This document shows positions 4,792-36,221 of a stretch of 38,582 nucleotides of DNA, piece after piece; positions within the stretch are counted from its first letter, which is position 1, and every line of letters starts with the position of its first letter. Source of the stretch: Chthoniobacterales bacterium (lineage in GTDB: Bacteria > Verrucomicrobiota > Verrucomicrobiia > Chthoniobacterales > JACTMZ01); contig JBAXCT010000001.1 in the NCBI GenBank assembly GCA_037141375.1, positions 1 to 38,582 on the forward strand, read 5' to 3'. The notes beneath the pieces are model-generated. The model was not told the origin of the DNA and did not search any database. It saw only the letters and a list, made by a program, of their open reading frames with translations. A program made the translations under genes and the position numbers.

Positions 4792-5201
4792 GACGTACCG
4801 CGAGGGAACGCACAGCAAAAACAACTCTCGCACGCTTCATTTCTTGCGATGAAGTTTTTTCGCGGCCCGCTGTCAGGCGTTCCGCGCGTCGATGACCAGC
4901 AACAAGATGTTCGGACTCCCGGTTTATGGACGCGATGGACGCGTCCGCCTCTCCCCTCGCCTTCGCCCGATGTTTAGTCGGACTGGCTTTGCTCCCGCAT
5001 GCGCGGGATAAAGGATTGTTACCGGATACCGCAGCGCAACTGTGGCCGATTCTCACGGCCTTCCCTTGGCTTGCTGGTCGGTCTCACCCGGCTTTCGCCG
5101 GATGCTGGTCATGCAAAAGAACGCAACAACTTATGTAGGCTCCGCCCTCTATTACGTCAATCCCCCTTGCAAAAATTCGCCGCACCGCCATCAATCAACG
5201 C

Positions 5202-8276: not shown

Positions 8277-8279
8277 GCT

Positions 8280-9056
8280 TCAGACGAGAAATGAGGTGAT
8301 TGCATAATCGGCAGCAAGAATAGTGATGCATGAGATGACCACGGCCTTCGTGGTAGCGGCACTGACCGCTCTGGCTCCAGTCGCGTAAGAAATACGGTTC
8401 GCGTGGAAGCCCGCATAGGCGCAGATACTGATGGTCAGCAGGCCGAAGGTTACGGCTTTGAGCAGACACTCTCTTACATCCTTGCTTTCCACAGCGCGCT
8501 CGACCGCGGACCAGTAGACTCCCGGATCAACGCCGAGCAGCAGCGAACCCGAGAGGCTGCCTCCCCACAATCCGACAGCAACGAACAATGCGGTTTGCAG
8601 AGGGAAAACAAACAGTGCCGCAAGGAGACGCGGAGTAACAAGGTAGCCGCGGCTGTCGATTCCCATGGTCTCCAAGGCGGCGATCTGCTCGGAGTTGCGC
8701 TGGATGCCGAGTTCCGCGGCCAAAGCGGAGCCGGCCTGACCGACAAGCATCAACGAGGCCAGGACCGGAGCCATTTCACGCACCAGGCTGAGCGAGACCA
8801 GCGTGCCCAACAATCCTTCGGAGCCGAAGCGGTTCAGCACGTAATACCCTTGCAGGCCAAGGACGAGGCCGGTGAAAAGTCCCACGATGAGAATCACCGG
8901 CAAGCAGCGAAATCCCTGTTCGTAAATCGAGCGGATGACACGGCTGGGCAACCGCCGGGCGGAGAGGGTCGCAGTGAGCGAGGCGCCGAGGAAGAGGCCG
9001 AAATCCCCCAAGCCCCGCACGCGGGTGAGCGTCAAATGGCCGAGGGCATTGATCAC
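8280..9056 (-). CDS. mlaE: ABC transporter permease MlaE
   Basis: GTG start at 9054-9056, 258 aa. The conserved MlaE core is LVREMAPVLASLMLVGQAGSALAAELGIQRNSEQIAALETMGID. It is the first gene of the mla operon. Confidence 0.9.
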   Translation of the reverse strand: MINALGHLTLTRVRGLGDFGLFLGASLTATLSARRLPSRVIRSIYEQGFRCLPVILIVGLFTGLVLGLQGYYVLNRFGSEGLLGTLVSLSLVREMAPVLASLMLVGQAGSALAAELGIQRNSEQIAALETMGIDSRGYLVTPRLLAALFVFPLQTALFVAVGLWGGSLSGSLLLGVDPGVYWSAVERAVESKDVRECLLKAVTFGLLTISICAYAGFHANRISYATGARAVSAATTKAVVISCITILAADYAITSFLV

Positions 9057-22520: not shown

Positions 22521-23554
22521 GCCTGCGCAATACGTTGCATTTTTGTCAACACCGAGCGGGCGGCGCCGGAATCAATCGCCTCCTGCGCGCGCTGGATGCT
22601 CTCCGGCCACCCCCCGGAGAGGCCCGCGATTTGCAGGGCGGCAGCCGCGTTGACGACGACGATCTCGCGGGTTGGGCCACGCTCTTCCCCCGCAAGGATG
22701 CGCGTGATACGATGGGCATTCTCTACGGCATTCCCACCCCGCAAATCTTCCACCTTGGCTGCGGGAACGGCCATGGAATCAGGGCTGAGTTCGAATGATC
22801 TGGTTCCGCCTCGGGTCGACTCGGTGCACCGTGTGACGCCGAGGGTGGAGATTTCATCCATGACTTTTCCGCCTGCAACTCGACCATGGACGACCCAAGA
22901 GCATTCACGCCCCAGAGCGGGGAGAACAGAGGCGTAAAGAGGAAGCAGCGCCTCACTAAAAACGCCCGCCAACTGAAACCGCGGCGACGCTGGGTTAAGC
23001 AGAGGTCCGAGCATATTGAACACCGATGCATTGCCACGCCCAGCCAGGATCTTTCGCGCAGCTACCACGGCCTTGAAAGACGGGTGAAAGCGGGGAGCAA
23101 ATAAAAAAGTGGCACCACCCTCCTCAAGCATTCCGACCAACTTCTCCATGGGAAGATCCCCGGCCACTCCGAGAGCCTCCAGAACATCGGCGCCTCCGCT
23201 TTGTGATGTCATGCCCCGATTACCATGCTTCACCACGCGCACCCCGGCGCCAGCAGTAACGAACATCACGGCGGTGGAAATATTGAAAAGTCCGAGCTTG
23301 TCGCCTCCCGTGCCGCAGACGTCGATAAATCCATCGATCCCGCCGGGGACGACAAAAGGTTCTGACCTTTGCAGAAAAGTGTCTGCCAAGGCCCGAACTT
23401 CGTCCGGAGTTTCCCCCCGGTGGTGCCACGCCTGCAAAAAGTCAGCTTTTTTTTCATCGGAAATAGCGCCGGAAAGAAGTTCACCTGCGATGTCCACAAT
23501 TTCTCGGTCGCCGAATAATTTGCCGGCTTGGATCTGCTGAAGGCGGTCATCCAT
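22517..23554 (-). CDS. trpD: anthranilate phosphoribosyltransferase
   Basis: Track ORF trimmed to the ATG at 23552-23554 (MDDRLQQI...), 345 aa. It carries the signature DVCGTGGDK and the block VVKHGNRGMTSQSGGADVLEALG. It shares 1 nt with the aroD stop (TGATG) and overlaps the convergent PBP gene by 4 nt. Confidence 0.92.
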   Translation of the reverse strand: MDDRLQQIQAGKLFGDREIVDIAGELLSGAISDEKKADFLQAWHHRGETPDEVRALADTFLQRSEPFVVPGGIDGFIDVCGTGGDKLGLFNISTAVMFVTAGAGVRVVKHGNRGMTSQSGGADVLEALGVAGDLPMEKLVGMLEEGGATFLFAPRFHPSFKAVVAARKILAGRGNASVFNMLGPLLNPASPRFQLAGVFSEALLPLYASVLPALGRECSWVVHGRVAGGKVMDEISTLGVTRCTESTRGGTRSFELSPDSMAVPAAKVEDLRGGNAVENAHRITRILAGEERGPTREIVVVNAAAALQIAGLSGGWPESIQRAQEAIDSGAARSVLTKMQRIAQA

Positions 23555-24243
23555 CACATGACCTCCTGCAGTCGCCGTGCGACATCTTCGACCGGCCATT
23601 GCCCGTCAACTTGCGGCCGGTCAAGATAGCCATACACGAGGGCAGAACCGGCCGCCGGCAGCACTAGGCGGGAGACTTTCCCTAGTTGCCCCATTCCCAT
23701 GGTCGCGACGCCTTGTTCCGATGTGGCTTGTACAAAAAGCAGCGTGGCCAAATCGGCTGGTCCGAGTAACTGCGTGGCCAGCTTGACGATATCTGCGCCA
23801 AGCTTTTTCCCATCCTTGATCATGCGCAGGAGGACACGGGGGTCGGGCGTGGTTCTAAAATTATGGAAAGAAAGAATCTGTTTGATCCCGCGATGCCTGG
23901 CCTCCAAGAGGACGTTGTTGAACGCTTTTGCGCTGCGGATTTCCACATCAACCATAGCAGCCAAGGGGAGAAAACGTTGCAGCAAGAATCTCCGGTGCGC
24001 CATGGGAACTCCTTTGGCGCCTCCCTCCGCAGGATGACGGGCGGTCAAGAGAATCGGCCGCCTGATTGCGGGCAAAGCCGCCGCTACGGTGCTCTCCTGC
24101 GCGGCGAGTTGATCAAGTCGGATCTCCACGTAGTCCACGTCATCGTGCGGAGCCAGCTCCGCCGCCAGGCGCAAACCTCGGACGGTGTGCGCCGTCGCGA
24201 CCACCGCGCAGCTTGAACCAATTGGCTTTTGCTTCTGTTTCAT
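23554..24243 (-). CDS. aroD: type I 3-dehydroquinate dehydratase
   Basis: 229 aa. Type I DHQase pattern: DYVEIRLD, SFHNFRTTPD, the Schiff-base lysine context GADIVKLA, and MGMGQLGKVSRLV. Confidence 0.85.
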   Translation of the reverse strand: MKQKQKPIGSSCAVVATAHTVRGLRLAAELAPHDDVDYVEIRLDQLAAQESTVAAALPAIRRPILLTARHPAEGGAKGVPMAHRRFLLQRFLPLAAMVDVEIRSAKAFNNVLLEARHRGIKQILSFHNFRTTPDPRVLLRMIKDGKKLGADIVKLATQLLGPADLATLLFVQATSEQGVATMGMGQLGKVSRLVLPAAGSALVYGYLDRPQVDGQWPVEDVARRLQEVM

Positions 24244-24313: not shown

Positions 24314-25705
24314 ATGATCTCCCGAAAGCAGGAACTCTCACTGCAGATAAACCAAGTCGCGGATGGGCTGCTGCTCATCCTCTCCCTTTACATCGGCTAT
24401 GCGCTGCGTCGCTACCAGATCATAGACTTCGACATTCTTCCGGCGATTCCTCCCATAGAGGATTTTTTCTGGATGTTTCTTGTCATCGGTTTATTCGGGC
24501 CCCTTCTCCTCGAGATGCAGGGATTCTACCAGTATCCATTGGAAAAGTCTCTGGCCCGGTCATTCCGTCAAATCGCCTACGCAGGCGTCTGGCTGGGTTT
24601 GCTGCTTGGTGCGTGCGTTGTCTTTCTAAGACTGGGCATTCCCAGTCGCTCCGCCTTCCTTTTGTTCATCGCGATTGCACCAATGTGCCTCCTGCTGCGT
24701 GAGGCCGTATACCGCGACAATTATCTTCGATCCTTGCGAGGGGGGGCGCAGGGAGAAACGGTCATTCTGGCCGGCGTCCATGACAGCATGGACCAGTTGC
24801 TCTCTTCGCTTTCGCCTGTGCAGAGACTTGAGATAGATGTGGTGGCAAGAATTGACCTCCTCTGCCAAGACGTGCAAGACTTGGTTGCGGTGATTCACCA
24901 GCACAATGTAGGTCGCGTCATTTTCGCTTTCGGTGCGCAGTCCCCCGCAAACCTGCAAACGGCGATCGCCGCATGCGAAACAGAGGGCATCGAAGCATGG
25001 ATCGCCGCAAATTTCGTCCGTACTTCTATTGCACGACCGGCTTACGACACGCTTGGCCCGATACCCATGCTGGTCCTGCGCGTCACGCCGGAGTTGTCGT
25101 GGGCAATACTTCTCAAAGCAATCATGGATCGTGTCGGATCGTTTTTCGGGCTGCTATTGCTTACGCCATTGTTTGTACTCGTCGCGCTGTCAATCAAGAT
25201 CACATCGCCCGGCCCTGTCATTTTCAAGCAAAGGCGGGCCGGGCGATACGGAAAACCCTTCACTATGTACAAGTTTCGCTCCATGCGGTTGGGCGCGGAA
25301 ACCGAGAAGGACGCCTTGCGAGAACTCAACGAAATGAGCGGGCCCGTTTTCAAAGTCGCAGGCGATCCGCGAGTCACTCCGCTCGGCCGCTGGCTTCGCC
25401 GCACAAGCATCGACGAGTTTCCCCAATTGCTCAACGTCCTGCTCGGGCAGATGAGTCTGGTGGGGCCACGCCCCCTCCCCCTCTATGAGGTCAATAATTT
25501 TGAACTCACGGCCCATCGTCGACGCCTCAGCATGAAACCCGGATTGACCTGCCTATGGCAAATTAGAGGGCGCAATACAGTCAAGGATTTCAATGATTGG
25601 GTGAAGCTGGATGTAGAGTATATCGACAACTGGTCTCTTGCTTTGGACTTGCGAATTCTCCTGCGGACCCTGCCGGCGGTTCTCCTCGGCCAAGGCGCGA
25701 GGTGA
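24314..25705 (+). CDS. polyprenyl-phosphate glycosyl-1-phosphate transferase (WbaP/WcaJ-like bacterial sugar transferase)
   Basis: 463 aa. N-terminal TM helices are followed by a central Rossmann-like region and a C-terminal sugar-transferase domain (ITSPGPVIFKQRRAGRYGKPFTMYKFRSM, DEFPQLLNVLLGQMSLVGPRP). Confidence 0.88.
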   Translation: MISRKQELSLQINQVADGLLLILSLYIGYALRRYQIIDFDILPAIPPIEDFFWMFLVIGLFGPLLLEMQGFYQYPLEKSLARSFRQIAYAGVWLGLLLGACVVFLRLGIPSRSAFLLFIAIAPMCLLLREAVYRDNYLRSLRGGAQGETVILAGVHDSMDQLLSSLSPVQRLEIDVVARIDLLCQDVQDLVAVIHQHNVGRVIFAFGAQSPANLQTAIAACETEGIEAWIAANFVRTSIARPAYDTLGPIPMLVLRVTPELSWAILLKAIMDRVGSFFGLLLLTPLFVLVALSIKITSPGPVIFKQRRAGRYGKPFTMYKFRSMRLGAETEKDALRELNEMSGPVFKVAGDPRVTPLGRWLRRTSIDEFPQLLNVLLGQMSLVGPRPLPLYEVNNFELTAHRRRLSMKPGLTCLWQIRGRNTVKDFNDWVKLDVEYIDNWSLALDLRILLRTLPAVLLGQGAR

Positions 25706-26012: not shown

Positions 26013-26148
26013 GCCTCGAACTTCTCACCGCAAGCGGAGGTTAGGCTTGGGATCAGCGGCTTCTCCTCGGTCATGACAAAACAAATGCCATCAAAAAACT
26101 TTGGCGGTTGATCCAAGGCCAGCCGTTCACAATTCTCATCCCACCAAT

Positions 26149-26766
26149 ATGAACAAAACGTTAATCGCCCTTGCTCTCCTCGCGACAGCACTTGCAGTCC
26201 AGGCTCAGCAGTTGAACACCGATTTCAAAATAACAAAAATTACTCCAGATCTTGTCACGACCGCCGATTACACTTTCAGCTACGGCCCCAAGAATAAAAA
26301 AGTCGCGAAGAACAAGGAATTTCTTGAGGTGGAGGTGTCTTTCGATTGGCAGCCAAAAGCCCAAGATCCAGCTTACTTGGATGACCTCACGATCAACTAC
26401 TACGTACTTCTCAGCAATAAGAGCAAAGAGTATCCTAAGGGAGCGCTTCTAATCGGTTCCGTAACCCACAGCGCCATTCCTCAGGGGAAAGACATGCACT
26501 CTGTCGTGTATGTCAGTCCGCGCACTTTAGAGCGTTTTTTTGACGGCAAGGCCCCCACCTCTGCGGCGACTGCTGTTGTGGATGTTGGTGTGACGATCAC
26601 CAAGCAGGGTGCGACGGTTGCCGAAGGAAGTTGGAAGGGTCGGGGTCAGTGGTGGACCGCTCTCCCTCAGGTGCCTGGCTACGTTCTTAACAAAAACCAA
26701 ACGCCATTCGCCCCGCTGGCTTGGGATTACTACGAGGCGATCAAATCCGGACCAGCCGGGATGTAA
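26149..26766 (+). CDS. secreted protein of unknown function, first gene of the pilus-like cluster (Amuc_1102 position)
   Basis: Track ORF (TTG at 26101) trimmed to the ATG at 26149, giving the signal peptide MNKTLIALALLATALAVQA|QQ and 205 aa. It is beta-rich and Lys-rich. I recognised no family from sequence; the assignment rests on synteny. Confidence 0.7.
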   Translation: MNKTLIALALLATALAVQAQQLNTDFKITKITPDLVTTADYTFSYGPKNKKVAKNKEFLEVEVSFDWQPKAQDPAYLDDLTINYYVLLSNKSKEYPKGALLIGSVTHSAIPQGKDMHSVVYVSPRTLERFFDGKAPTSAATAVVDVGVTITKQGATVAEGSWKGRGQWWTALPQVPGYVLNKNQTPFAPLAWDYYEAIKSGPAGM

Positions 26767-26796: not shown

Positions 26797-28602
26797 ATGC
26801 CCAAGTCCTCCCGCATTGTTGCCGTCAACCTCGGTATGCAGACCGTCACCATGGCGGTCTTTGATGCTCCAGGCGGCGCGCTCCGTCTTTCCTCTTTTGC
26901 GGAGGCTGACCTCGTCCCCGATCCGTCCGCTGACAGCAGCAGAGCGGGTCAAATCAAAATCGCCGTCGCCGAGTTGCGTGCGAAGCTGGGATGGAGTAGT
27001 GGCCCGGCCGGCTGCGCGATACCCTCGCAGGGCGTCTTCGCCCGATTCGTCAAGATTCCCCTTGTCGAGTCCGACAAGGTTGGCCCGATGCTTTACTTCG
27101 AGGCGCAGCAGAATGTTCCCTACCCGATCGAAGAAGTGTCTTGGGGGTACCAAGTGCTGCCAGAAGCGGAATCCGACAAACTTGGCGCGCTGATCATCGC
27201 CACCAAACTCGACCAGTTGGAATCGACTGTTGAGGCTTTGACGGGAGCCGGAGTTTCGCCAGAGCTGATCGACACATCCACCACGGCAATCTATAATGCT
27301 TTGCGCTACAATTACCCAGATCTCCACGGTTGCACTCTGCTGATCGACATAGGTGCGCGCGCCACAAACCTTCTTTTTGTCGAGGGCGATCGGCTGTTTA
27401 TCCGCACTTTGCCGGTCGGTGGAAACTCCATCACAGCGGCTCTGCAGCGCAAATTTGATAGTCATTCGCTCTCCGAGCTTGAACAACTGAAGAAGCAGAA
27501 GGGGTTCATTCCTCAGCCCGGCGACCACCATGGCGAACACAGTGAGGAGGCGGAGGAGATCGGCAAAATTGCGAGGACGGTCATGACGCGCATCCACAAC
27601 GAGATCACCCGTTCCATCACTTTCTATCGGACCAATCAGCTCGGCTCAGGACCTGTGCGTGCGCTTTTGGCCGGAGGAGGAGCATCTCTTCCGTACGCCT
27701 TGGAATTTTTCAATGAAAAGCTCTCTCTCCCTATTGAGTTTTTCAACGCCTTGCGCCGCGTTTCGCTTTCGCCGACCGTCCAGGAATCCGAGATCCGCGG
27801 GGCCGCGCACCGTTTAGGTGAGTGCGTGGGTCTGGCCTCCCGACTTCTCTTAGGCGACGCCGCGCCTCTCCAAATCGAGCTAAAATCCAAAACCCTTGAG
27901 GCCGCAGCGCTCGATCGAAAGCGGCGTCCGTTCTTGGTTGCGGCATCGGTGGTCCTCGTTGGATCGCTCTGCTCGCTTGCCCTTTACTTCAGCCACGCGG
28001 CTGATCGTGCCCAGATCGCGAGCGACCAGATTGACTCACGACTAAACGCCTTGCGCGGGTTCAAGCAGGAACTTGACACTACGGCCAAGCAGCAGTCCGA
28101 TGCTTTGCAAGTTTCTGCAGATTTGGTCGCCGCCCCCATGCTGCGGGTGGCATGGGCTGACCTCATAAGCGAGATCAACAAGGTCATGCCCGAAAAAGAT
28201 ATCTGGGTCACCAAGCTTCGCCCTATGATCGGCGATGCGGTCATCGAGCCCGGAGACAAAGGGAGTTCAGGGGCGCCTGGCGATCCTGCAGGTGGGGATG
28301 CTGCCGAGCGCCGTGGTCAGTCAGGTGCGGCTTCTCCTGCGGTCACCGCCTTGGTCTTGGAAGGTCTGTACTTGGAAGAGGCTGATGGCGGGCCTGCCAT
28401 TGTCGATCGTTTTTGCGAAGCCCTCAGCAAATCTTCGCGATTCGCCATAAAGCCCGACACCATCGCCTCCGGCCGGCGTCTCGGTGATCCTCACGATGAC
28501 CGCCCGCTGCAGGTGCTGCAGGAACGTGCCACGCCGAGCGGAGACGCTTGGGCTTATACCTACAAACTTGTTGTGCCATTAGCCCGCCCCATACCTCTCT
28601 AA
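26797..28602 (+). CDS. PilM-like actin-fold ATPase domain fused to a TM helix and a PilN-like periplasmic domain
   Basis: 601 aa. PilM/FtsA-like blocks are IVAVNLGMQTVTMAVF, LLIDIGARATNLLFVEGDRLFIRTLPVGGNSIT and ALLAGGGASLP. The TM helix is at about res 378-399 (nt 27928-27993). A coiled segment follows, then the PilN-like motif INKVMPEKDIWVTKLRP. Confidence 0.85.
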   Translation: MPKSSRIVAVNLGMQTVTMAVFDAPGGALRLSSFAEADLVPDPSADSSRAGQIKIAVAELRAKLGWSSGPAGCAIPSQGVFARFVKIPLVESDKVGPMLYFEAQQNVPYPIEEVSWGYQVLPEAESDKLGALIIATKLDQLESTVEALTGAGVSPELIDTSTTAIYNALRYNYPDLHGCTLLIDIGARATNLLFVEGDRLFIRTLPVGGNSITAALQRKFDSHSLSELEQLKKQKGFIPQPGDHHGEHSEEAEEIGKIARTVMTRIHNEITRSITFYRTNQLGSGPVRALLAGGGASLPYALEFFNEKLSLPIEFFNALRRVSLSPTVQESEIRGAAHRLGECVGLASRLLLGDAAPLQIELKSKTLEAAALDRKRRPFLVAASVVLVGSLCSLALYFSHAADRAQIASDQIDSRLNALRGFKQELDTTAKQQSDALQVSADLVAAPMLRVAWADLISEINKVMPEKDIWVTKLRPMIGDAVIEPGDKGSSGAPGDPAGGDAAERRGQSGAASPAVTALVLEGLYLEEADGGPAIVDRFCEALSKSSRFAIKPDTIASGRRLGDPHDDRPLQVLQERATPSGDAWAYTYKLVVPLARPIPL

Positions 28603-29487
28603 ATGGACTCGCTCAAAAAAAATCCTTTCCTAGCCGGCTTGATCGTAGCGGTTGCCGTCTCCATCGCGGCGTCGGGATATTGGACCTACTCCGCCTTCAG
28701 CCGCTTTGCCGAGCAGCAACAATCGCTCGACGGCAAGCGAGGCGAAATCGAAAGCTTGCAGGCCAGCAAGCCATTCCCCGACCAAAACAACGTGCAAGCA
28801 GCCAAAGCAGAACTCAAGCGGGCGGAGGAAATACTTGCAGAAAACCGGAAGGCATTCGCTGTCGTTGCGCCATCTATCTCTCCCCAAGCCTTTCAAGATG
28901 ATCTGCGGGGAAAGGTAAGCGACATCATCAAGCGGGCCCAAGCGAACGGCGTTATGCTGGCGCAGTCTTTTTATCTGGGCTTTGAGGTATTCGAAAAACA
29001 ACCGCCCGCCGTCGAGGAAGCTCCGTCGCTTGCCGTGGAACTTGAGTCCATTTATGCGGCGGTTGGCAAGTTGGTCGATGCGAGAGTAAAATCCATTGTT
29101 TTGGTGGCACGCGAAGTCCCGGGGCAAGCGCAGCAGACGCCGGAAGGTCAGACGGAGAAGCCCGCGCACAAAGGGAAAAACCAATCCGAGCAGACAACTT
29201 TTGCCTTGCGCGCTTTCAGCCTTACGTTCACCTCGGACCAAGCTTCGTTCAAAAACGCCTTGAACAGCATCGTGTCTGCCAAGCCACCGATTTTTGTAAG
29301 GTTGGTTGCCATTACGAACTCAACTCTTAGTGGACCACCTAAGAGTGGCGAGGCAGTTGCAACGGAGCAGTCTCCCGCCGCAGAAGCAAGTGCGGAGGAG
29401 GGCAAGATCAAACCGGTTCTCGGCAGGGAACTTCTGACCATCAACCTCCATTTGGCTGCCGCCTCACCCCAAAAAACCGCACAATGA
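28603..29487 (+). CDS. Amuc_1100-like membrane-anchored coiled-coil protein (PilO position)
   Basis: The ATG immediately follows the upstream TAA. It has an N-terminal TM (FLAGLIVAVAVSIAASGYW) and a coiled coil. Blocks SPQAFQDDLR, FYLGFEVF, LAVELESIYAAVGKLV, FSLTFTSDQASFKNALNSI and IKPVLGRELLTINLHL are collinear with my recalled Akkermansia Amuc_1100 sequence. Confidence 0.75.
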   Translation: MDSLKKNPFLAGLIVAVAVSIAASGYWTYSAFSRFAEQQQSLDGKRGEIESLQASKPFPDQNNVQAAKAELKRAEEILAENRKAFAVVAPSISPQAFQDDLRGKVSDIIKRAQANGVMLAQSFYLGFEVFEKQPPAVEEAPSLAVELESIYAAVGKLVDARVKSIVLVAREVPGQAQQTPEGQTEKPAHKGKNQSEQTTFALRAFSLTFTSDQASFKNALNSIVSAKPPIFVRLVAITNSTLSGPPKSGEAVATEQSPAAEASAEEGKIKPVLGRELLTINLHLAAASPQKTAQ

Positions 29488-30518
29488 AAGATCTCAAGCA
29501 AAGATATGAGAAATTGCTGGCCATCGCGGCAGGGCTTGCCGCCCTTGGTGTCACGGCCTACGTCCTGATGGGTGCAGCTGATCTTTCGACGAGCATGCAA
29601 GAACCCCCAGTCGTCGCTAGCGGGGAAGCTTTTGCCCCAAGTGCGGAACTAAAAAGACTGCAGGACGATACCGAATCGATGGGCGGTTCAGTTGGGTGGT
29701 CTGATGGCAAAGCGTCACCCTTTGTCAGCCGCATCTACCTTTTGCGTGAAGGTCGCCTGGTGGACATTTTGGAGAGCGGCAACGACCTTTTCTCAGGAAT
29801 CCCCAATGCTTGGGTATTGGAGAACAGCTTGGACTACACCGATATGAATTTGCCCAAGAGGGATCCCGATCAAGATGGTTTTACCAATCAGGAAGAGTAC
29901 GGTGGAAAAACTAATCCCAACGACAAGTCTTCCACGCCGCCAATTTGGACCAAGCTGCGGATGACCGACAGCAAAATTGAGCAGCTACAGATCCTCTTCA
30001 CCCGTCCGTCGGAAGATGGTGGGGCATGGATCAACTCCACCTCCGGCGGGCAAGACCTAAAAGGCCAGTCAGAGCTCTACACCTTAGGCAGCGATATTTT
30101 CGTGAACGAGTTTCAGCCAGGCCTGACCAAACCGAAAAAGGAACCCACCGTTTACAAGCTTGTGCGCGTCGACAAGTCCGAACAGCCCATCCCTGGGATA
30201 CCCGGAGCGACTAAGGATGTTTATTCTGCCGTCCTCCGCAATAGCGTGGATGATCGCGAGCTTATCCTTGAGCAGGAGAAGCCGCAGACTTCACCCTACT
30301 CCAAGGCAACAATTACGGACACGAGGCCAGGTGGTAAGGCTTGGGAAGGGCGAGCTGGGCAAAAGTTTCCGTTGGAGGGGGCTGGAGATTTCATGTTGGT
30401 CGATGTATCGCCTGACCAAGCCGTAATCAAAAAGGTCGACTCCAGTGAAAAATTGGAGATACCATTTGAACAGCTTACGAGTCTTTCCGAGCAGACGCAG
30501 GAAACGCCTAAGGAATAA
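29484..30518 (+). CDS. membrane-anchored protein of unknown function with a thrombospondin-type-3-like Asp-rich motif (PilP / Amuc_1099 position)
   Basis: ATGA overlap with the upstream gene at 29484-29487. It has an N-terminal TM (LLAIAAGLAALGVTAYVLMGAA), the motif DPDQDGFTNQEEYGGKTNPND (nt 29862-29924), and a beta-rich C-terminal half. Confidence 0.7.
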   Translation: MKDLKQRYEKLLAIAAGLAALGVTAYVLMGAADLSTSMQEPPVVASGEAFAPSAELKRLQDDTESMGGSVGWSDGKASPFVSRIYLLREGRLVDILESGNDLFSGIPNAWVLENSLDYTDMNLPKRDPDQDGFTNQEEYGGKTNPNDKSSTPPIWTKLRMTDSKIEQLQILFTRPSEDGGAWINSTSGGQDLKGQSELYTLGSDIFVNEFQPGLTKPKKEPTVYKLVRVDKSEQPIPGIPGATKDVYSAVLRNSVDDRELILEQEKPQTSPYSKATITDTRPGGKAWEGRAGQKFPLEGAGDFMLVDVSPDQAVIKKVDSSEKLEIPFEQLTSLSEQTQETPKE

Positions 30519-30541: not shown

Positions 30542-32962
30542 ATGCCACGCACCCACTTACGCTCCCTGTTCCTCCTCTCCTTGCTTCTCAGTTGGCAGGG
30601 AAATATCTTTGCCGGTAGCGACAATGGAGCGCCTCTATCTGCGGTGGAAGCCACGGCAGAATTCGAGATTGCCAAACGCCAAACATTGGCCGACGACTAC
30701 GCGCCGCAGGCCGTCCAGAAGGGCACCGCGGCCTTGGCGGAGCGTGACTACGAGACCGCGTACGCCCAGTACAAAGCGGCCGTCGATGCCTTGCCCGACG
30801 CCCCCAGCGTTCGGGAACTAAGAACGGTTGCCTTAGACGGCTTTTCCAAGGCCGTCATGGGGTTGGCCGAGCAGCGAATCGCCGAAGGTCGCTGGGCGGA
30901 TGCCAAGTCGCCCGTTGAGGTCCTGCTCCAGCCACAATACAACCCCAACTACAAGCCCGCCCAGCGCCTGCTCGCGCGCCTCGAGGCGCCAGACTATTTC
31001 AACACAACAGTAACCCCCGGCTTCGTCAGCAAGGTTGAACTGGTCAAAAAATTGCTCGTCGAAGCTCAGGGACTCTACGACTCAGGGCGATATGAAGACG
31101 CGCTCAAAAAATACGAGGAGGTGCTGCAGAATGACAGGTACAACATCGCCGCACGCCGAGGTATGGAGCAGGTCAACCTTTCGCGTATGCGCGTATCCGA
31201 TGCAGCCTACAATGATGCCCGGGCAGGAATGATCACGGATGTTGACAAGGGATGGGAGTTGCCAGTTCGCAGGCGCGATGGGGGGCCTTCCTCCGTGATT
31301 GAGCAGCCTGTCCTCTCAGCAAAGGGGACACGGTCCATCAACCGCAAGCTCGACGAAATCATTATTCCGAGACTCCAATTCACCGATGCCACAGTTCGCG
31401 AGGCGATCGAATATCTCCGCACCCAAACGGTAAAACTGGATACGGGGGCCATCGACGAGGGGGACAAAGGTGTCAACATCGTGCTGAAACTAGACCCATC
31501 GGCAGCCTCCCAGACTATTACGATTGATCTCGCTGGCCTGCCCTTGCGCGAGGCATTGGATTATATAACGCGCTTGGCCAATCTTAAGACCAAGGTGGAA
31601 CCTTACGCCGTGCTCATCGTTCCGATTACAGAGCCCACAGATACCTTGATCACCAAGGAATATCGTGTGCCACCAGGTTTTATCACCGCCCTGCCATCCG
31701 GTGGCGCCGGCCAGGCTCCGACTGACGGCACCACGGTAGCTGTGAGCAAAGCCAAGGAGTTTCTCGAGTCCCAAGGCGTGCAATTCCCTCCCGGTGCCAG
31801 CGCGAATCTCTTGACCAGCAGCAGCCGGCTTATTGTGCGCAACACCCAAGAGAATCTGGACCTTGTAGATGCCCTGGTCGAGAGCTCGGTCAGTGGCACC
31901 CCATCCCAAGTCGAGATCGAATCTAAATTTGTCGAAGTCTCGCAGGATAATCTCAAGGAACTCGGCTTTGACTGGCTGCTGGGTCAGTTCGCTTTTCCTG
32001 GGGGATCGGGTGTTTATGGTGGTGGTGGAACCAGCGGCAACCAATTCAACGCGGCGAGCCCACAATCTGGGCAGACCTATTTTCCCCTCAACTATCCGGG
32101 GACGCAGGTTCCTGTTGGAGTTAATCCCATTACCGGAGGCAACCGCAGCGGAGGAACGGCGATCACCGCAAACGCGCTCGACGGTCTCCTCTTGGGTAGC
32201 CCGGCAGCCGTGCCGACCGCGGGAGTCCTTGCCTTGGCAGGTATATTCACCAATCCGCAGTTTCAAGTGGTCTTGCGCGCCTTAAACCAAAAAAAAGGAA
32301 TCGACGTGCTTTCGGCTCCAAAAGTGACGACAAAAAGCGGATCTTCTGCCAAGGTGGAAATCGTCCGAGAATTTCGTTACCCTCAGGAATACGATCCGCC
32401 GCAAATTCCCCAGACGACTGGCAGCGGAACTCAGCCTGTCACCCCGGCAACCCCGACGTCGTTCCAGATGAAGCCAATCGGGGTGACCCTAGAGGTCGAG
32501 CCTACCGTTGGCTCTGACAACTACACCATCGACCTGCGACTGCTGCCTAACGTGACGGAATTCGAGGGTTTTATAAACTACGGCTCGCCGATCCTAAATC
32601 AAGGTGTTGTCGTGACGCCAAACATCATCAATTACCCCGTTTTTAGCCAACGCAAAGTAGAGACCTCAGTTAGCGTCTATGATGGGGCGACCGTAGCCTT
32701 AGGAGGACTGATTCGAGAGGATGTGCAAAAAGTTACCGATAAAACCCCTCTCTTGGGTGATATCCCCTTGGCTGGCGTGCTCTTTCGCTCGCAGGCCGAC
32801 AAGCATACCAAGCGTAATCTCATGATTTTTGTCACCGCCAAGTTGATGGATCCTGCCGGCCAGCCTTTGGCTAATGCTACAGTCCTAGAAGAAGTGGGTC
32901 AGAGCACGGAGACCGCAGTTCCCGATGTCATGCCCCCTCCGGTCGAACCACCTCTCCCCTGA
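30542..32962 (+). CDS. secretin (type II/III secretion system protein family, PilQ/GspD-like) with N-terminal TPR-like region, copy 1
   Basis: 806 aa. The signal peptide ends at ...NIFA|GS and is followed by a helical-repeat region of about 210 aa. An N0/STN-like domain (IIIPRLQFTDATVREAIEYL...LPLREALDYI) and an N1 domain (LIVRNTQENLDLVDALV) come next. The secretin core contains QVEIESKFVEVSQ, PQFQVVLRALNQKKG, APKVTTKSG, GDIPLAGVLFRS and NLMIFVTAKL. Confidence 0.9.
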   Translation: MPRTHLRSLFLLSLLLSWQGNIFAGSDNGAPLSAVEATAEFEIAKRQTLADDYAPQAVQKGTAALAERDYETAYAQYKAAVDALPDAPSVRELRTVALDGFSKAVMGLAEQRIAEGRWADAKSPVEVLLQPQYNPNYKPAQRLLARLEAPDYFNTTVTPGFVSKVELVKKLLVEAQGLYDSGRYEDALKKYEEVLQNDRYNIAARRGMEQVNLSRMRVSDAAYNDARAGMITDVDKGWELPVRRRDGGPSSVIEQPVLSAKGTRSINRKLDEIIIPRLQFTDATVREAIEYLRTQTVKLDTGAIDEGDKGVNIVLKLDPSAASQTITIDLAGLPLREALDYITRLANLKTKVEPYAVLIVPITEPTDTLITKEYRVPPGFITALPSGGAGQAPTDGTTVAVSKAKEFLESQGVQFPPGASANLLTSSSRLIVRNTQENLDLVDALVESSVSGTPSQVEIESKFVEVSQDNLKELGFDWLLGQFAFPGGSGVYGGGGTSGNQFNAASPQSGQTYFPLNYPGTQVPVGVNPITGGNRSGGTAITANALDGLLLGSPAAVPTAGVLALAGIFTNPQFQVVLRALNQKKGIDVLSAPKVTTKSGSSAKVEIVREFRYPQEYDPPQIPQTTGSGTQPVTPATPTSFQMKPIGVTLEVEPTVGSDNYTIDLRLLPNVTEFEGFINYGSPILNQGVVVTPNIINYPVFSQRKVETSVSVYDGATVALGGLIREDVQKVTDKTPLLGDIPLAGVLFRSQADKHTKRNLMIFVTAKLMDPAGQPLANATVLEEVGQSTETAVPDVMPPPVEPPLP

Positions 32963-32969
32963 CACCTCC

Positions 32970-35564
32970 ATGATAAAGCTTTTTTGCACGCTCGTCCTCG
33001 CCCTCTCATTCCATTCGGCGACGCTCTTTGCGGGCACCGGCGCAGGCGACGGAGCGGCTTCCATCCTTGAGACCGCTGGCGATCGTGAGATCAGCCGACG
33101 CCAAGAGAATCTGGTTGTGGCCGAAGAGGCATTGAAGAGCGGCGATGCGGCTCTGCAGCGCAACGACCTTGCCTCCGCCTACGAACAATACAAACGTGCC
33201 GTGGAACTTGTTCCGCAAGGATCCGAAACGGCTGGGCTACATGGCCGAGCAGTTTCCCGCTTTTCCTCCACCGCAGTTCGCTACGCAGAATACCTTGTGA
33301 GTCAGGGCGACTATGCCAAGGCCGAGTCGGTGGCCCGCGGGGTGCTTGAGCCCGCCTATAATCCGGATTACCGCCCGGCGGCCGTGTTCCTCAGTCGTCT
33401 GGAACAGCCGGATTATTTCAACAAGACGATCACACCATCATTTGCACAAGAACGCGAAGAGGTGAGTCAACTTCTCGGCGATGCCAACGGATTCTATGAT
33501 TCCGGACGCTACGACATGGCCCAAAAACGCTATCAACAAGCTCTAGCTCTGGATAAGGACAACGCCGCAGCTTATCGGGGCCTTGAGCAAGTCGAAGTCG
33601 GCAAGCAGCGCTACTACGAATCAGCTTACAATGAGACACGCTCGCGTATGCTTTGGCAGGTGGAAAAAGCATGGGCGCGGCCCAAACAAGTATACAACGA
33701 CTCGCGTGTCACCGATGGAGCAAACTCCGAGCAAGACAGGCGTGGCACCGAGTTGATGATCGCAAGACTCAACCAGATCATCGTTCCGTCCGTAAACTTT
33801 CAAGATGCAACGATTCAAGATGCCATGGCCTTCCTTCGCCAAAAAAGCCGGGAACTGGGTGATACCGACCAGAACAGCCGGGGCATCAACATTCTCCTGA
33901 AACTTCCATCGGGATCTGCAGCCCTGCGCGCCACTGGCGACCCTGCTTCAGATCAGGGATCTGCTCCGTCTGCGTTCAATGATCGAATAACGCTGCATCT
34001 AAGCAACGTACCGCTTTACGAGGTACTTCGATACATCGCCACACTCTCGGGCCTTAAAGTAAAAGTAGAGCCATTTGCCGTTTCGGTTGTGCCCCTCTCG
34101 GAAGTCACCGAAACCTTGGCGGTCAGAGAGTTCAAGGTGCCCCCTGGTTTTATCACGGCAGGGGCTACAGGGGGTGCTGATGCGACGGGACCGCAGGCTG
34201 GCTCGGCTGGCGCGGATGCAAACACAGCAAAGCTCGCAAACCGGCAAACCGCAAAGGACTTCCTTGAATCACAAGGTGTACAATTCCCGGTCGGAGCTAG
34301 CGCGCGCTTTATTCCCGGAAGCAGTAAACTTGTTGTCCGGAACACCGCCGACAACCTCGACCTGATCGAATCCCTCGTCGACGCGGCCATGGGTGATCAG
34401 CCAACCCAAGTGGAAATCGAAGCCAAGTTTGTGGAAGTTTCGCAGAACAACCTCAAGGAGCTTGGCTTCGATTGGAGGCTGGGACCTTTTGCTATCGGTG
34501 ACTCCGGCGTCTACGGAGCGGGCGGAGATGCGGGCAATGCGGCAGCGGTGCCGTTCATTAACCCCGGGACTGGTGGCGCGATCGGGGGCAGTTCAGTAAC
34601 GAGTGGACTCCGCTCTGGCAACTCCGCCATTTCTGCGAACAGTCTGGGCGCACTGCTCGGGCAGGGACTTGGCGGTGCGGGTCCGTCACCGGCCATCTTC
34701 TCGATCGCCGGCATCTTCACCAATCCGCAATTTCAAGTGGTGATTCGCGCGCTCAACCAGAAAAAAGGCGTCGATTTGATGGCCGCCCCGAAAGTGACGA
34801 CCAAAAGCGGACAGAAAGCCACGATCACGATCAGTCGCGAGTTTCCCTACCCGCAACAATACGAACCGCCCCAAATCCCGCAGGACAGCTCTGGCGGGAA
34901 CGTCGTCAATGGTAATGCGGGTGGGAACACAGCGGACCCCGTGGTTACACCCAGCTTCCCAACAGACTTCACGACGCGCGACTTGGGAGTTACCCTTGAA
35001 GTGGAACCGCAAATAGGGCCCGATGGATACACAATCGATCTCACTCTCTCTCCTGAAGTTGTCGACTTCGATGGGTTCATCAACTACGGATCCCCTATTT
35101 CTGTGCCAAGTCGGACTTTTTTAGGGCAACAAGTAGCACGCGATGCCAATGACTTAATCCTCGGAGTTTTCGACGTCTTCACTCCAACAACCCCGCGAAT
35201 CTTGACCGAAAACGTCATCAACCAACCTATCTTCAGCAAACGCAAAGTAACAACCAATGTCAGCATCTGGGACGGTCAGACCGTAGTTCTTGGGGGACTC
35301 ATTCGGGAGGATGTGCAAAAGGTCAGCGATAAGGTGCCGATTTTGGGAGACATCCCGCTGGCCGGAACCCTGTTCCGCTCCCAAGTGGACCAAAAGATCA
35401 AGCGAAACTTGATCATTTTCACCACCGCACGATTGATGGATGCTGCAGGGCAACTTTTGAGGCCCCAAGATGATTCGGATCAGGAGGAAATCGTGGATCC
35501 TGTCGGCCTACCCAAGGACCTTTCCAAACCTTCGCTAAATCCCAAGAGCTTCAGCAGAAAATAG
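32970..35564 (+). CDS. secretin with N-terminal TPR-like region, copy 2 (paralogue of copy 1)
   Basis: Track ORF trimmed to the ATG at 32970 (MIKLFCTLVLALSFHSATLFA|GT), 864 aa. It has the same domain order as copy 1. Matching blocks are YNPDYRPA, LEQPDYFNKTITP, YDSGRY, AKDFLESQGVQFP, QVEIEAKFVEVSQNNLKELGFDW, PQFQVVIRALNQKKG, APKVTTKSG, GDIPLAGTLFRS and NLIIFTTARL. Confidence 0.9.
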   Translation: MIKLFCTLVLALSFHSATLFAGTGAGDGAASILETAGDREISRRQENLVVAEEALKSGDAALQRNDLASAYEQYKRAVELVPQGSETAGLHGRAVSRFSSTAVRYAEYLVSQGDYAKAESVARGVLEPAYNPDYRPAAVFLSRLEQPDYFNKTITPSFAQEREEVSQLLGDANGFYDSGRYDMAQKRYQQALALDKDNAAAYRGLEQVEVGKQRYYESAYNETRSRMLWQVEKAWARPKQVYNDSRVTDGANSEQDRRGTELMIARLNQIIVPSVNFQDATIQDAMAFLRQKSRELGDTDQNSRGINILLKLPSGSAALRATGDPASDQGSAPSAFNDRITLHLSNVPLYEVLRYIATLSGLKVKVEPFAVSVVPLSEVTETLAVREFKVPPGFITAGATGGADATGPQAGSAGADANTAKLANRQTAKDFLESQGVQFPVGASARFIPGSSKLVVRNTADNLDLIESLVDAAMGDQPTQVEIEAKFVEVSQNNLKELGFDWRLGPFAIGDSGVYGAGGDAGNAAAVPFINPGTGGAIGGSSVTSGLRSGNSAISANSLGALLGQGLGGAGPSPAIFSIAGIFTNPQFQVVIRALNQKKGVDLMAAPKVTTKSGQKATITISREFPYPQQYEPPQIPQDSSGGNVVNGNAGGNTADPVVTPSFPTDFTTRDLGVTLEVEPQIGPDGYTIDLTLSPEVVDFDGFINYGSPISVPSRTFLGQQVARDANDLILGVFDVFTPTTPRILTENVINQPIFSKRKVTTNVSIWDGQTVVLGGLIREDVQKVSDKVPILGDIPLAGTLFRSQVDQKIKRNLIIFTTARLMDAAGQLLRPQDDSDQEEIVDPVGLPKDLSKPSLNPKSFSRK

Positions 35565-35630
35565 CGACAGCGTGGAGGCGGGAAACTCCGAATGCTGCAC
35601 CTCTGTGGGGTGAGACATCCTTCAAACGTT

Positions 35631-36221
35631 ATGACCATCGGCCTGACCGGGGGTATTGCCTGCGGAAAATCCACCTTCGTTCGGGCTCTGTCCGCTTGCC
35701 ATGGATTTGAACATTTCTCGGCTGACGAGTGCGTGCATCAATTGCTTGCCTCTGATCCTTGCCTCATCAAGGCGGTATCTGACGCCTTCGGCCCGGAGGT
35801 CATAGATGCCGGCGGTCACGTGAACCGCCCGGCCCTCCGCGGCATTGTGTTCGTTGATGCGGTCGCCCGCCGCAAGTTGGAGGCGATCCTTCACCCTGTG
35901 GTCCGTGGACGATGGCAGACCCAACTCCAAAATTGCCACGCCTCGGGCAGACATTTTCTCGCCGATATTCCCCTGCTTTTCGAAACCGGGTCCGAGCGCT
36001 CCTTTGGGCAGATTGTGGTCGTCGCCGCCTCCACGCAGGTCCAGAGGGCCAGACTGGCCACCAGAGGGCTGCAATCAGCCATAGCTGAGGCTATGCTTGC
36101 CAGCCAAGCTCCCATCAGGCAAAAGATAGACCAAGCCAGCATCGTGGTATGGAACGATGGCAATGAGTCCTCGCTCCACCGTCAGGCTTCGCTTGCCGCC
36201 GAATTGCTTTTCGCAACCTGA
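35631..36221 (+). CDS. coaE: dephospho-CoA kinase
   Basis: Track ORF trimmed to the ATG at 35631 (MTIGLTGGIACGKST, a P-loop at the canonical N-terminal position). DIPLLFE and ILHP blocks are present; 196 aa. Confidence 0.9.
   Translation: MTIGLTGGIACGKSTFVRALSACHGFEHFSADECVHQLLASDPCLIKAVSDAFGPEVIDAGGHVNRPALRGIVFVDAVARRKLEAILHPVVRGRWQTQLQNCHASGRHFLADIPLLFETGSERSFGQIVVVAASTQVQRARLATRGLQSAIAEAMLASQAPIRQKIDQASIVVWNDGNESSLHRQASLAAELLFAT

What the first reader, a model, noticed from the sequence alone, without database searches (positions are those of the whole stretch)
30542..35564. Tandem paralogous secretins, each with a built-in TPR-like N-terminal region
Seen: two secretin genes lie 7 nt apart (806 and 864 aa) and are collinear over their whole length by eye. 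Shared elements are a signal peptide ending (I/L)FAG, a helical-repeat region of about 210 aa, then N0/STN-like and N1 domains. The repeat region shows YNP(N/D)Y(K/R)PA, LE.PDYFN.T(V/I)TP, YDSGRY and N(I/A)AA.RG(M/L)EQV. The secretin core shows QVEIE(S/A)KFVEVSQ.NLKELGFDW, AGIFTNPQFQVV(L/I)RALNQKKG, APKVTTKSG, REDVQKV.DK.P(L/I)LGDIPLAG.LFRS. My impression is roughly half identical positions; I did not compute this. Copy 2 carries an extra segment of about 27 aa (SVPSRTFLGQQVARDANDLILGVFDVFTPTTPRIL) and a longer Gly-rich insert. I saw no AMIN domains and no lipobox. Established: T2SS/T4P/T3SS secretins are normally homo-oligomeric rings encoded by a single gene. TPR proteins such as PilF/PilW/Tgl are usually separate pilotins. 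Inference: the two copies may form a hetero-oligomeric ring, stacked or alternative channels, or be a subfunctionalised pair. The fused TPR-like region may replace a pilotin.
Basis: partly seen in the sequence, partly recalled or inferred. Interest (0 to 1): 0.7.

Follow-up and report, generated by a model that had tools for sequence, protein, structure and literature searches.

The report
Tandem duplicated Amuc_1098-type pilus secretins
Two neighbouring genes encode intact, diverged copies of a known outer-membrane channel protein of the Akkermansia-type pilus-like (MUL2) locus; the pair is kept in one clade of soil and freshwater Verrucomicrobia, which is moderately interesting because such channels are normally built from one gene product.

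Summary
Two same-strand ORFs lie 7 nt apart: 30542-32962 (806 aa) and 32970-35564 (864 aa). They are collinear and 47-50% identical.

Both pass NCBIfam's full-length model for the Amuc_1098 family. Both sit directly after homologues of Amuc_1102, 1101, 1100 and 1099. This is the Akkermansia pilus-like "MUL2" locus, here in a Chthoniobacterales genome.

The N-terminal TPR-like region is not new. It is covered by the family model, is present in distant relatives, and was described for Amuc_1098 in 2016.

What is specific here is the in-situ tandem duplication.
- It is present, in the same order, in every locus of one Chthoniobacterales clade whose contig extends past the first secretin gene.
- It is absent from 34 single-copy sister loci, including Chthoniobacter flavus.
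- It is absent from 80 more distant loci.

Both copies are under strong purifying selection and keep all family-invariant residues, so neither is a pseudogene.

No tool here can tell whether the two proteins form a mixed ring or separate rings. I favour co-expressed subunits of one machine that probably co-assemble; this is inference. A pilotin role for the TPR region is neither supported nor excluded, and its position argues against it.

Verdict: a new variant of a known system, of moderate interest.

The parts
26101..26766 (+). Amuc_1102-family pilin-like protein; first gene of the MUL2-like cluster (context)
   Evidence: NCBIfam NF042424, 109 bits against cut-off 55. Syntenic in the related loci.
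26797..28602 (+). Amuc_1101-family PilM-like protein, 601 aa
   Evidence: Pfam PilM_2 E 5e-26. NCBIfam TIGR01175 pilM 136 bits against 133. NF045709 532 bits, below its cut-off of 650.
28603..29487 (+). Amuc_1100-family protein
   Evidence: NCBIfam NF038287 E 1e-46, 160 bits, below its cut-off of 180. Position conserved.
29484..30518 (+). Amuc_1099-family protein
   Evidence: NCBIfam NF042425, 148 bits against cut-off 50.
30542..32962 (+). Secretin copy 1 ('A type'), 806 aa. Layout: signal peptide, TPR-like helical region (residues ~30-238), N0-like, N1-like, secretin domain (residues 580-769).
   Evidence: (NF042912, 831 bits against 750). A-clade monophyly is 100%.
30629..31255 (+). TPR-like helical-repeat region of copy 1 (residues 30-238)
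   Evidence: AF2 helices H32-66, 70-83, 88-114, 118-128, 138-148, 159-178, 181-197 and 202-238. Pfam TPR_19 25.3 bits at residues 178-208. Foldseek finds TPR proteins and BamD at E 0.03-0.2.
32279..32848 (+). Secretin domain (PF00263) of copy 1
   Evidence: Pfam E 4.7e-35, residues 580-769. PDB sequence hits to GspD and PilQ.
32963..32969 (+). 7-nt spacer between the stop codon of copy 1 and the ATG of copy 2. It holds no promoter-like or terminator-like site.
   Evidence: By a rough start-picking rule, the spacing in 31 related loci runs from overlapping to about 100 nt, median 12.
32970..35564 (+). Secretin copy 2 ('B type'), 864 aa. Layout: signal peptide, TPR-like region (30-236), N0-like (271-375), N1-like (444-497), secretin domain (594-823), then a conserved acidic C-terminal tail.
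   Evidence: (NF042912, 850 bits against 750). B-clade monophyly is 99-100%.
33057..33677 (+). TPR-like helical-repeat region of copy 2 (residues 30-236)
   Evidence: AF2 all-helical with pLDDT about 90 over most of the region. Pfam TPR_11 35.8 bits and TPR_14 28.0 bits. Foldseek finds CTPR and FKBP52 at E 3e-4.
34749..35438 (+). Secretin domain (PF00263) of copy 2
   Evidence: Pfam E 2.1e-33, residues 594-823. Foldseek finds V. cholerae PilQ 6w6m at E 3e-13, plus BfpB and GspD.
35592..36221 (+). coaE (dephospho-CoA kinase), the conserved downstream boundary of the locus
   Evidence: Pfam CoaE E 5e-39. It follows the single secretin in single-copy relatives and follows copy 2 in pair-bearing relatives.

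Best explanation
**What it is.** An in-situ tandem duplication of the outer-membrane channel gene of the Amuc_1098 family. The protein layout is signal peptide, TPR-like helical region, N0-like, N1-like, secretin domain. The duplication sits at the 3' end of a MUL2-type, type-IV-pilus-like locus (Amuc_1102, 1101, 1100, 1099, 1098 homologues) in a Chthoniobacterales (Verrucomicrobiota) genome.

**Shown.**
- Both copies are full-length members of the family.
- They lie 7 nt apart on the same strand, with no promoter-like or terminator-like signal between them.
- Both are under strong purifying selection.
- The pair, in the order A then B, is fixed in one clade and absent outside it.

**Inferred.**
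- Both are co-transcribed with the locus, exported by Sec, and cleaved by signal peptidase I. They are not lipoproteins.
- Both act as channel subunits of the same pilus-like or glycan-acquisition machine.
- They start from a homo-oligomeric ancestor, are made together, and keep the most similar sequence in the ring-forming secretin domain. The most likely arrangement is therefore co-assembly into mixed (hetero-oligomeric) rings.
- The more diverged parts have divided or specialised their contacts with the inner-membrane platform, the cell wall or assembly factors. These parts are the TPR-like and N0 regions, several loops and the C-terminal tail.
For: **Family and context.**
- NF042912 scores 831 and 850 bits against a cut-off of 750, covering profile positions 19-804 and 4-804 of 805.
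- The neighbours match the Amuc_1102, 1101, 1100 and 1099 models.
- The same aroD ... secretin-coaE-rho synteny is published for MUL2.

**In-situ duplication.**
- Single-copy relatives have 1099-secretin-coaE. Pair-bearing relatives have 1099-A-B-coaE.
- A second copy follows the first in all 45 A-clade loci whose contig extends past it. Only L038, a 2.9-kb contig, is uninformative.
- There are 0 pairs in 34 single-copy Chthoniobacterales loci and 0 in 80 distant loci.
- The tree of the neighbouring PilM-like gene separates pair loci from single-copy loci with 99% bootstrap.

**Both copies functional.**
- Against a relative at 85% and 78% amino-acid identity, dN is 0.10 and 0.165. dS is saturated, with the synonymous proportion of differences (pS) at 0.72-0.77. 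dN/dS is about 0.04 for copy 1 and cannot be computed for copy 2.
- The housekeeping neighbours rho and rnc give dN 0.078 and 0.086.
- About 150 columns are invariant across 63 A and B sequences. They include GFDW, NPQFQ, GGL and GD.P...FRS.
- AF2 and Foldseek recover a secretin fold.

**Pattern of divergence.** Identity between the window pair is 67% in the secretin domain and 61% in N1, against 42% in the TPR-like region and 48% in N0.

**Co-expression.** The gap is 7 nt, with nothing above chance in the promoter and terminator scan. Gaps in relatives are short, median ~12 nt.
Against: - No experiment or multimer model bears on mixed versus separate rings.
- The conservation gradient, with the secretin domain more conserved than the N-terminal parts, is also seen within each clade and in single-copy relatives. 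It therefore does not specifically indicate hetero-oligomerisation.
- Only 7 positions are fixed differently between the clades at >= 90% conservation. The signature of functional divergence is thus weak, and simple dosage or redundancy is not excluded.
- I found no published precedent for a natural hetero-oligomeric secretin.
- Whether these genomes hold further secretins or several type-IV-filament systems that could each use one copy was not checked.
Confidence: 0.45

Rival explanations
1. Separate homo-oligomeric channels. Each paralogue forms its own ring, and the two rings serve different filaments, substrates or conditions. Examples would be pilus extrusion versus glycan, DNA or exopolymer passage, or docking onto different inner-membrane platforms. 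This is classical subfunctionalisation.
For: - The A and B clades are each 99-100% monophyletic and anciently diverged, with saturated synonymous sites (pS 0.755) and no sign of gene conversion.
- The periplasmic modules that would contact partners are the most diverged: TPR-like region 42% identical, N0 48%.
- The A type has clade-specific loop deletions: N0 loop 17 residues against 39-55, and the loop after PPQIP 23 against 36-37. It also has a diverged C-terminal tail. The B type keeps the ancestral acidic tail.
- Bacteria with several secretins generally use them in separate systems (general knowledge; E. coli GspD alpha and beta).
Against: - Only one set of Amuc_1099-1102 partner genes accompanies the two secretins.
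- The genes are tightly linked and presumably co-translated in similar amounts.
- Very few positions are diagnostically fixed between the clades.
- No second platform is evident in the window.
Confidence: 0.33
2. Dosage or redundancy. The duplication is kept mainly to raise or buffer the amount of a very abundant envelope protein. The copies are functionally interchangeable.
For: [quoted passage not shown]
- Few diagnostic differences exist between the clades.
- Both copies keep all invariant residues.
Against: - Duplicates kept purely for dosage are usually young or homogenised. These are ~50% identical with saturated synonymous sites.
- Both have been kept in fixed order across a deep clade: within-clade Kimura distances are ~0.45-0.5, and a second copy follows the first in all 45 loci whose contig extends past it.
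- There are clade-specific indels and tails.
Confidence: 0.15
3. One copy is a decaying pseudogene or an annotation or assembly artefact.
For: Three of the ~45 pair-bearing loci show a broken copy-2 reading frame: L020, L024 and L036.
Against: - Each of those is a single frame break in an otherwise 70-95% conserved ORF, and one lies in a low-complexity loop. This fits assembly error or a very recent event.
- Both ORFs are intact in the window and in ~40 species.
- dN is far below the saturated dS.
- An identical copy-2 protein and a 99.5-99.8% identical pair were recovered from independent assemblies.
Confidence: 0.02

Closest known systems
Amuc_1098 ('PilQ', the secretion-system channel protein beside the MUL2 locus) of Akkermansia muciniphila; NCBIfam NF042912
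   Same: - The same full-length architecture: signal peptide, TPR-like N-terminal region, secretin C-terminus.
- Both window proteins exceed the equivalog cut-off.
- The same gene neighbourhood: Amuc_1102, 1101, 1100 and 1099 upstream, coaE and rho downstream.
- The TPR-secretin fusion and its pilotin analogy are already published.
   Different: - Akkermansia and 80 distant relatives sampled here have one copy. This clade has two, ~50% identical, in fixed order.
- The window proteins are shorter: 806 and 864 aa against 907 aa.
Type IVa pilus secretin PilQ (e.g. V. cholerae 6W6M, P. aeruginosa 6VE2)
   Same: Best structural match of the C-terminal two-thirds: Foldseek E 3e-13 to 6w6m. There are sequence hits in the secretin domain. 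A PilM-like gene lies in the same operon.
   Different: - Below the TIGR02515 cut-off: 121 and 129 bits against 284.
- No AMIN domains; a TPR-like region sits in their place.
- No recognisable pilNOP genes by standard models; Amuc_1100 and Amuc_1099 are there instead.
- PilQ is a single-gene homo-oligomer.
Genomes with several secretins at separate loci (e.g. E. coli GspD alpha and beta; P. aeruginosa XcpQ, XqhA, HxcQ, PilQ)
   Same: More than one secretin paralogue in one organism.
   Different: Those belong to different gene clusters or systems and are not adjacent in one operon (general knowledge; for GspD alpha and beta). Here the two genes are 7 nt apart behind a single set of platform genes.
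TPR pilotins and assembly factors (PilF, PilW, Tgl, TadD, BamD)
   Same: Helical TPR-type fold. BamD is among the weak Foldseek matches at E 0.06.
   Different: - Those are separate outer-membrane lipoproteins. Here the region is fused to the N-terminus of the secretin, has no lipobox, and lies at the end of the protein that faces the inner membrane in solved secretins.
- No PilF, PilW or TadD match in the top 50.
TadB/TadC tandem homologues of the Tad inner-membrane platform
   Same: A precedent within type IV filament machines for two adjacent homologous genes encoding one kind of component, both retained (Denise et al. 2019).
   Different: A different component: the inner-membrane platform, not the secretin. 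That study reports it as arising through internal duplication and gene fission, and reports no tandem secretin pair in the passages read.

Membership tests
Secretin superfamily (Pfam PF00263) | C-terminal secretin domain | tested here: met
   E 4.7e-35 (copy 1) and 2.1e-33 (copy 2), covering the full profile. PDB sequence hits to GspD, PilQ and RcpA. Foldseek finds 6w6m at 3e-13.
Secretin superfamily (Pfam PF00263) | Periplasmic N0/N1-type ring-building domains upstream of the secretin domain | tested here: met
   The AF2 model of copy 2 has alpha/beta modules at 271-375 and 444-497. Foldseek alignments to full-length secretins span 600+ columns and include the XcpQ N-terminal domain 4ec5 at E 1.7e-3. 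The Pfam STN hit is weak, E 0.049.
Secretin superfamily (Pfam PF00263) | Assembly into a 12-15-mer outer-membrane ring | not testable with these tools
   No multimer prediction or experiment is available.
Amuc_1098 family (NCBIfam NF042912, equivalog) | Full-length match above the curated cut-off of 750 bits | tested here: met
   831 bits (profile 19-804 of 805) and 850 bits (4-804 of 805).
Amuc_1098 family (NCBIfam NF042912, equivalog) | Position at the end of an Amuc_1102-1101-1100-1099 cluster | tested here: met
   The four upstream ORFs match NF042424, NF045709 (below its cut-off, but TIGR01175 pilM is above its own), NF038287 (below its cut-off) and NF042425. The order is conserved in relatives.
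Amuc_1098 family (NCBIfam NF042912, equivalog) | One copy per locus, as in A. muciniphila | tested here: not met
   There are two copies here and in every locus of this clade whose contig extends past the first gene. There is one copy in 34 sister loci and 80 distant loci. This is a deviation in copy number, not in protein membership.
Type IVa pilus PilQ (TIGR02515) | Score above the family cut-off; N-terminal AMIN domains | tested here: not met
   121 and 129 bits against 284. No AMIN hit at E <= 0.1.
T2SS GspD (TIGR02517) | Score above the family cut-off | tested here: not met
   143 and 144 bits against 351.
TPR repeat proteins | Tandem helix-turn-helix repeats recognisable by TPR profiles or structure | tested here: inconclusive
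   One repeat (residues ~173-208) passes gathering scores: copy 2 TPR_11 35.8 against 26.8 and TPR_14 28.0 against 23.5; copy 1 TPR_19 25.3 against 25.0. The models show 8 helices of irregular length, 11-38 residues. Foldseek TPR matches have E 3e-4 (full model) and 0.03-0.2 (N-terminal model), with low TM-scores. The best description is TPR-like helical repeat.
Secretin pilotins (PilF, PilW, Tgl, TadD) | Outer-membrane lipoprotein (lipobox Cys) | tested here: not met
   The signal peptides end ...NIFAG/S and ...TLFAG/T. Copy 1 has no Cys. Copy 2 has Cys6 preceded by L-F, which is not a lipobox (by inspection).
Secretin pilotins (PilF, PilW, Tgl, TadD) | Specific structural similarity to known pilotins | tested here: not met
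   None appears in the top 50 Foldseek PDB matches of the N-terminal model. Generic TPRs and BamD appear only at E >= 0.03.
Secretin pilotins (PilF, PilW, Tgl, TadD) | Needed for secretin targeting or assembly | not testable with these tools
   Requires genetics or biochemistry.

The most novel reading that the evidence does not exclude
The two paralogues are obligate partners that alternate or mix in one outer-membrane ring. That would be the first natural hetero-oligomeric secretin. Their diverged TPR-like and N0 modules and C-terminal tails would then provide two different sets of periplasmic contacts within a single channel of the MUL2-type pilus or glycan-acquisition machine.
Probability: 0.3. 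Interest if true: 0.7.

Novelty: new variant of a known kind. Interest (0 to 1): 0.4.

Why it matters
- **Rule and possible exception.** In every solved case that came up here, secretins are rings of one gene product. A conserved, co-transcribed pair of diverged secretins behind a single set of platform genes would be a natural test of that rule. It would show whether such giant beta-barrel rings can be heteromeric and what heteromery would add.
- **Link to MUL2.** The pair extends the Akkermansia Amuc_1098-1102 / MUL2 locus, studied for mucin acquisition and host signalling, to free-living Chthoniobacterales. It identifies a clade in which the channel component has diversified.
- **If the copies form separate or redundant rings.** The finding is then an ordinary lineage-specific paralogue expansion.

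Tried and rejected
- **Dating the duplication.** I used neighbour-joining trees with 22 distant family representatives as outgroup. A, B and A+B+single-copy are each well supported. The order among the three groups is not. 'A + single-copy' falls from 98% with p-distances to 27% with gamma 0.65, while 'A+B' rises from 1% to 27%. This looks like long-branch attraction of the faster B clade. I therefore cannot distinguish a duplication in the ancestor of the pair-bearing clade from an older duplication followed by loss of B in the single-copy clade. No maximum-likelihood tree builder was available.
- **Shared indels as rare markers.** The alignment was too fragmented in loop regions. Anchor-based loop lengths showed only A-specific deletions, which do not inform the topology.
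- **dN/dS.** Between the paralogues and against relatives of 71-78% identity, synonymous sites are saturated. The closest relative, L082 at 99.5-99.8%, has too few changes. Only dN and an approximate dN/dS for copy 1 are usable.
- **Clade-specific fixed differences as a sign of functional divergence.** Only 7 sites qualify at >= 90% conservation. This is too few to localise a change of function.
- **Foldseek on the isolated N-terminal model, to test pilotin similarity.** Only weak generic TPR matches came back.
- **Literature.** Searches for hetero-oligomeric, tandem or 'two secretin' operons found nothing relevant. My recollection that the pIV secretins of phages f1 and IKe form mixed multimers could not be confirmed in the library. 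I use it only as an unverified lead.
- **Promoter and terminator scan of the locus.** Counts did not differ from shuffled sequence.
Full report
**1. Observation**

The window holds two same-strand ORFs. One is 30542..32962 (806 aa). The other runs from the ATG at 32970 to 35564 (864 aa). An in-frame ATG at 32925 would give 879 aa and overlap copy 1, but the signal peptide begins at 32970. The spacer is 7 nt.

BLASTP gives 47% identity and 62% positives over 821 columns, E = 0, collinear end to end. A global alignment gives 394 of 786 aligned positions identical. Both proteins have a Pfam Secretin domain (E 5e-35 and 2e-33). Neither has an AMIN hit, and by inspection neither has a lipobox.

**2. 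What the genes are**

Both proteins exceed the curated cut-off of NCBIfam NF042912, 'Amuc_1098 family type IV pilus outer membrane protein'. The scores are 831 and 850 bits against 750. The match runs over essentially the whole 805-position profile, so the N-terminal region is part of the family model. They fall far below the cut-offs for PilQ, GspD, MshL, HofQ and SctC.

The four upstream ORFs match the Amuc_1102, Amuc_1101 (PilM-like), Amuc_1100 and Amuc_1099 families. Downstream lie coaE, rho and rnc. This is the Amuc_1098-1102 cluster of Akkermansia muciniphila. The literature says the following about it:
- The cluster is now called MUL2 and is linked to mucin acquisition.
- The same flanking synteny is published: secretion-system channel protein, dephospho-CoA kinase, rho and 3-dehydroquinate dehydratase.

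[quoted passage not shown] An exhaustive profile search finds 1,475 clusters at 50% identity with E <= 1e-30. Most of the best 150 match from about residue 30 to about residue 776. The TPR-secretin fusion is therefore a family trait, not a feature of this pair.

**3. Structure**

*Copy 2, full length.* The AF2 model (63-sequence alignment, mean pLDDT 68.5) shows:
- an all-helical region at residues 30-236, with pLDDT about 90 over most of it;
- alpha/beta modules at 271-375 and 444-497;
- a beta-rich secretin domain at 581-823;
- disordered Gly-rich loops.

Foldseek against the PDB returns secretins first: V. cholerae competence-pilus PilQ at 3e-13, then BfpB, GspD and InvG. TPR proteins follow at about 3e-4.

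*Copy 1, residues 1-245.* A separate model has the same eight helices. It matches only generic TPR proteins and BamD, at E 0.03-0.2. No PilF, PilW or TadD appears in the top 50.

Only one repeat passes Pfam TPR gathering scores. 'TPR-like helical repeat' is a fair description.

A pilotin function is not supported. The region is N-terminal to N0. In solved secretins that end lies furthest from the outer membrane (established knowledge). It has no lipid anchor.

**4. Distribution of the pair**

A scan of one genome per GTDB species returned 80 loci, all Chthoniobacterales.
- In all 45 loci of one clade whose contig extends past the first secretin gene, an A-type gene is followed by a B-type gene in the same order and on the same strand. 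Only L038 (2.9 kb) is too short to tell.
- 34 loci have one secretin that scores equally against A and B. These include Chthoniobacter flavus Ellin428.
- The flanks are the same in both groups: (aroD, sugar transferase) 1102-1101-1100-1099-secretin(-secretin)-coaE-rho. The duplication is therefore in situ.
- The tree of the neighbouring PilM-like gene separates pair loci from single-copy loci with 99% bootstrap. The Amuc_1099 tree does so with 77%.
- In 80 more distant metagenomic loci of the family, none has a second copy.
- In 31 relatives evaluated with a rough start-picking rule, the spacing between A and B runs from overlapping to about 100 nt, median 12.

**5. Phylogeny**

The A and B clades are each monophyletic with 99-100% bootstrap. 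A, B and the single-copy sequences together are monophyletic against distant family members.

The order among the three is unresolved and depends on the distance correction. The duplication is at least as old as the pair-bearing clade. Within-clade Kimura distances are about 0.45-0.5. An older origin with one loss cannot be excluded.

**6. Selection and integrity**

The comparison below is against a relative that carries both genes (L081).

| Gene | Amino-acid identity | dN |
|---|---|---|
| Copy 1 | 85% | 0.10 |
| Copy 2 | 78% | 0.165 |
| rho | 88% | 0.078 |
| rnc | 87% | 0.086 |

Synonymous sites are saturated, with a proportion of synonymous differences (pS) of 0.72-0.77. dN/dS is about 0.04 for copy 1 and cannot be computed for copy 2.

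A 99.5% and 99.8% identical pair (L082) and an identical copy-2 protein occur in independent assemblies. About 150 alignment columns are invariant across 63 A and B sequences.

Three relatives show a single frame break in copy 2 within otherwise conserved sequence. This fits assembly error or a very recent event. The pseudogene reading is rejected.

**7. How the copies differ**

Identity between the window pair by region:

| Region | Identity |
|---|---|
| TPR-like | 42% |
| N0 | 48% |
| N1 | 61% |
| Secretin domain | 67% |

The same gradient exists within each clade and in single-copy relatives. Only 7 positions are fixed differently in the two clades at >= 90% conservation.

The A type has clade-wide loop deletions. 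Its N0 loop is 17 residues against 39 in B and 55 in single-copy genes. The loop after PPQIP is 23 residues against 36-37. Its C-terminal tail has also diverged. The B type and the single-copy genes share an acidic tail, EEE-(I/V)VEP(L/I)GLP...K.

Part of the difference is a deletion in the window's copy 1.

**8. Mechanism**

*Shown.* There are two intact, constrained, adjacent secretin genes of one family behind a single set of partner genes.

*Inferred.* Both are co-transcribed and both are exported as non-lipoprotein secretin subunits.

My preferred reading is co-assembly into mixed rings (confidence 0.45, including the shown parts). The reasons are:
- The ancestor was a homo-oligomer, so paralogues interact by default at birth.
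- The genes are made together.
- The ring-forming domain is the least diverged part.

The rivals are separate homo-oligomeric channels with divided roles (0.33), dosage or redundancy (0.15), and a pseudogene (0.02). Nothing available here discriminates between the first three.

**9. Novelty**

The protein family, its architecture and the locus are known and curated. A conserved tandem secretin pair within one operon was not found in the literature searched. It is absent from the other lineages of the family sampled here. I rate it a new variant of a known kind, with interest 0.4. If an obligate heteromeric ring were demonstrated, it would deserve about 0.7.

Noticed in passing
window 35439-35561 (copy 2 C-terminal tail); L040-L079 single-copy genes; B-type genes in L002-L035: A conserved acidic C-terminal tail, roughly EEE-(I/V)VEP(L/I)GLP ... 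K, is shared by B-type and single-copy secretins. It has diverged in A-type copies, which end in EPPLP. The best Foldseek matches of the N-terminal region are TPR domains solved with acidic C-terminal peptides (FKBP52, FKBP38, Hop with MEEVD). A TPR-tail contact in cis or trans is therefore an untested possibility.
   Followed up: partly
window 24314-25705 (+), with 23554-24243 (-): A polyprenyl glycosylphosphotransferase (EPS priming sugar transferase; TIGR03025, 368 bits) and aroD lie directly upstream of the pilus-like cluster. They are syntenic with it in many pair-bearing and single-copy relatives. A link between the cluster and exopolysaccharide export was not examined.
   Followed up: no
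window 3143-3904 (-) and 3901-4833 (-): An ORF with a prepilin-type N-terminal methylation motif (PF07963, E 7e-5) is followed by an ORF with no family hit. This is a possible pilin or pseudopilin gene about 22 kb from the secretin locus.
   Followed up: no
window 5478-9056 (-): A complete Mla-type lipid-transport operon is present: MlaA, MlaC, MlaD, ABC ATPase and MlaE. It is ordinary, and it confirms a diderm envelope.
   Followed up: no
window 26797-28602 (+): The PilM-like protein is 601 aa. It has a hydrophobic segment after the actin-like domain (about residues 385-410) and a long C-terminal extension, which suggests a PilM-PilN-type fusion. This is typical of the Amuc_1101 family, whose profile is 608 positions long.
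   Followed up: partly
L020 ~13507, L024 ~14443, L036 ~13484-13774: There are single reading-frame breaks in the copy-2 orthologue of three MAGs. In L036 the break falls in a low-complexity Ala/Gly/Pro-rich loop. These are probably assembly errors, but recent inactivation is not excluded.
   Followed up: partly
L083-L111 and other distant metagenome loci: About half of the distant Amuc_1098-family loci show no detectable Amuc_1099-1102 homologues next to the secretin when searched with the window's proteins. Either those neighbours have diverged beyond phmmer's reach or the secretin sits in a different context there.
   Followed up: no
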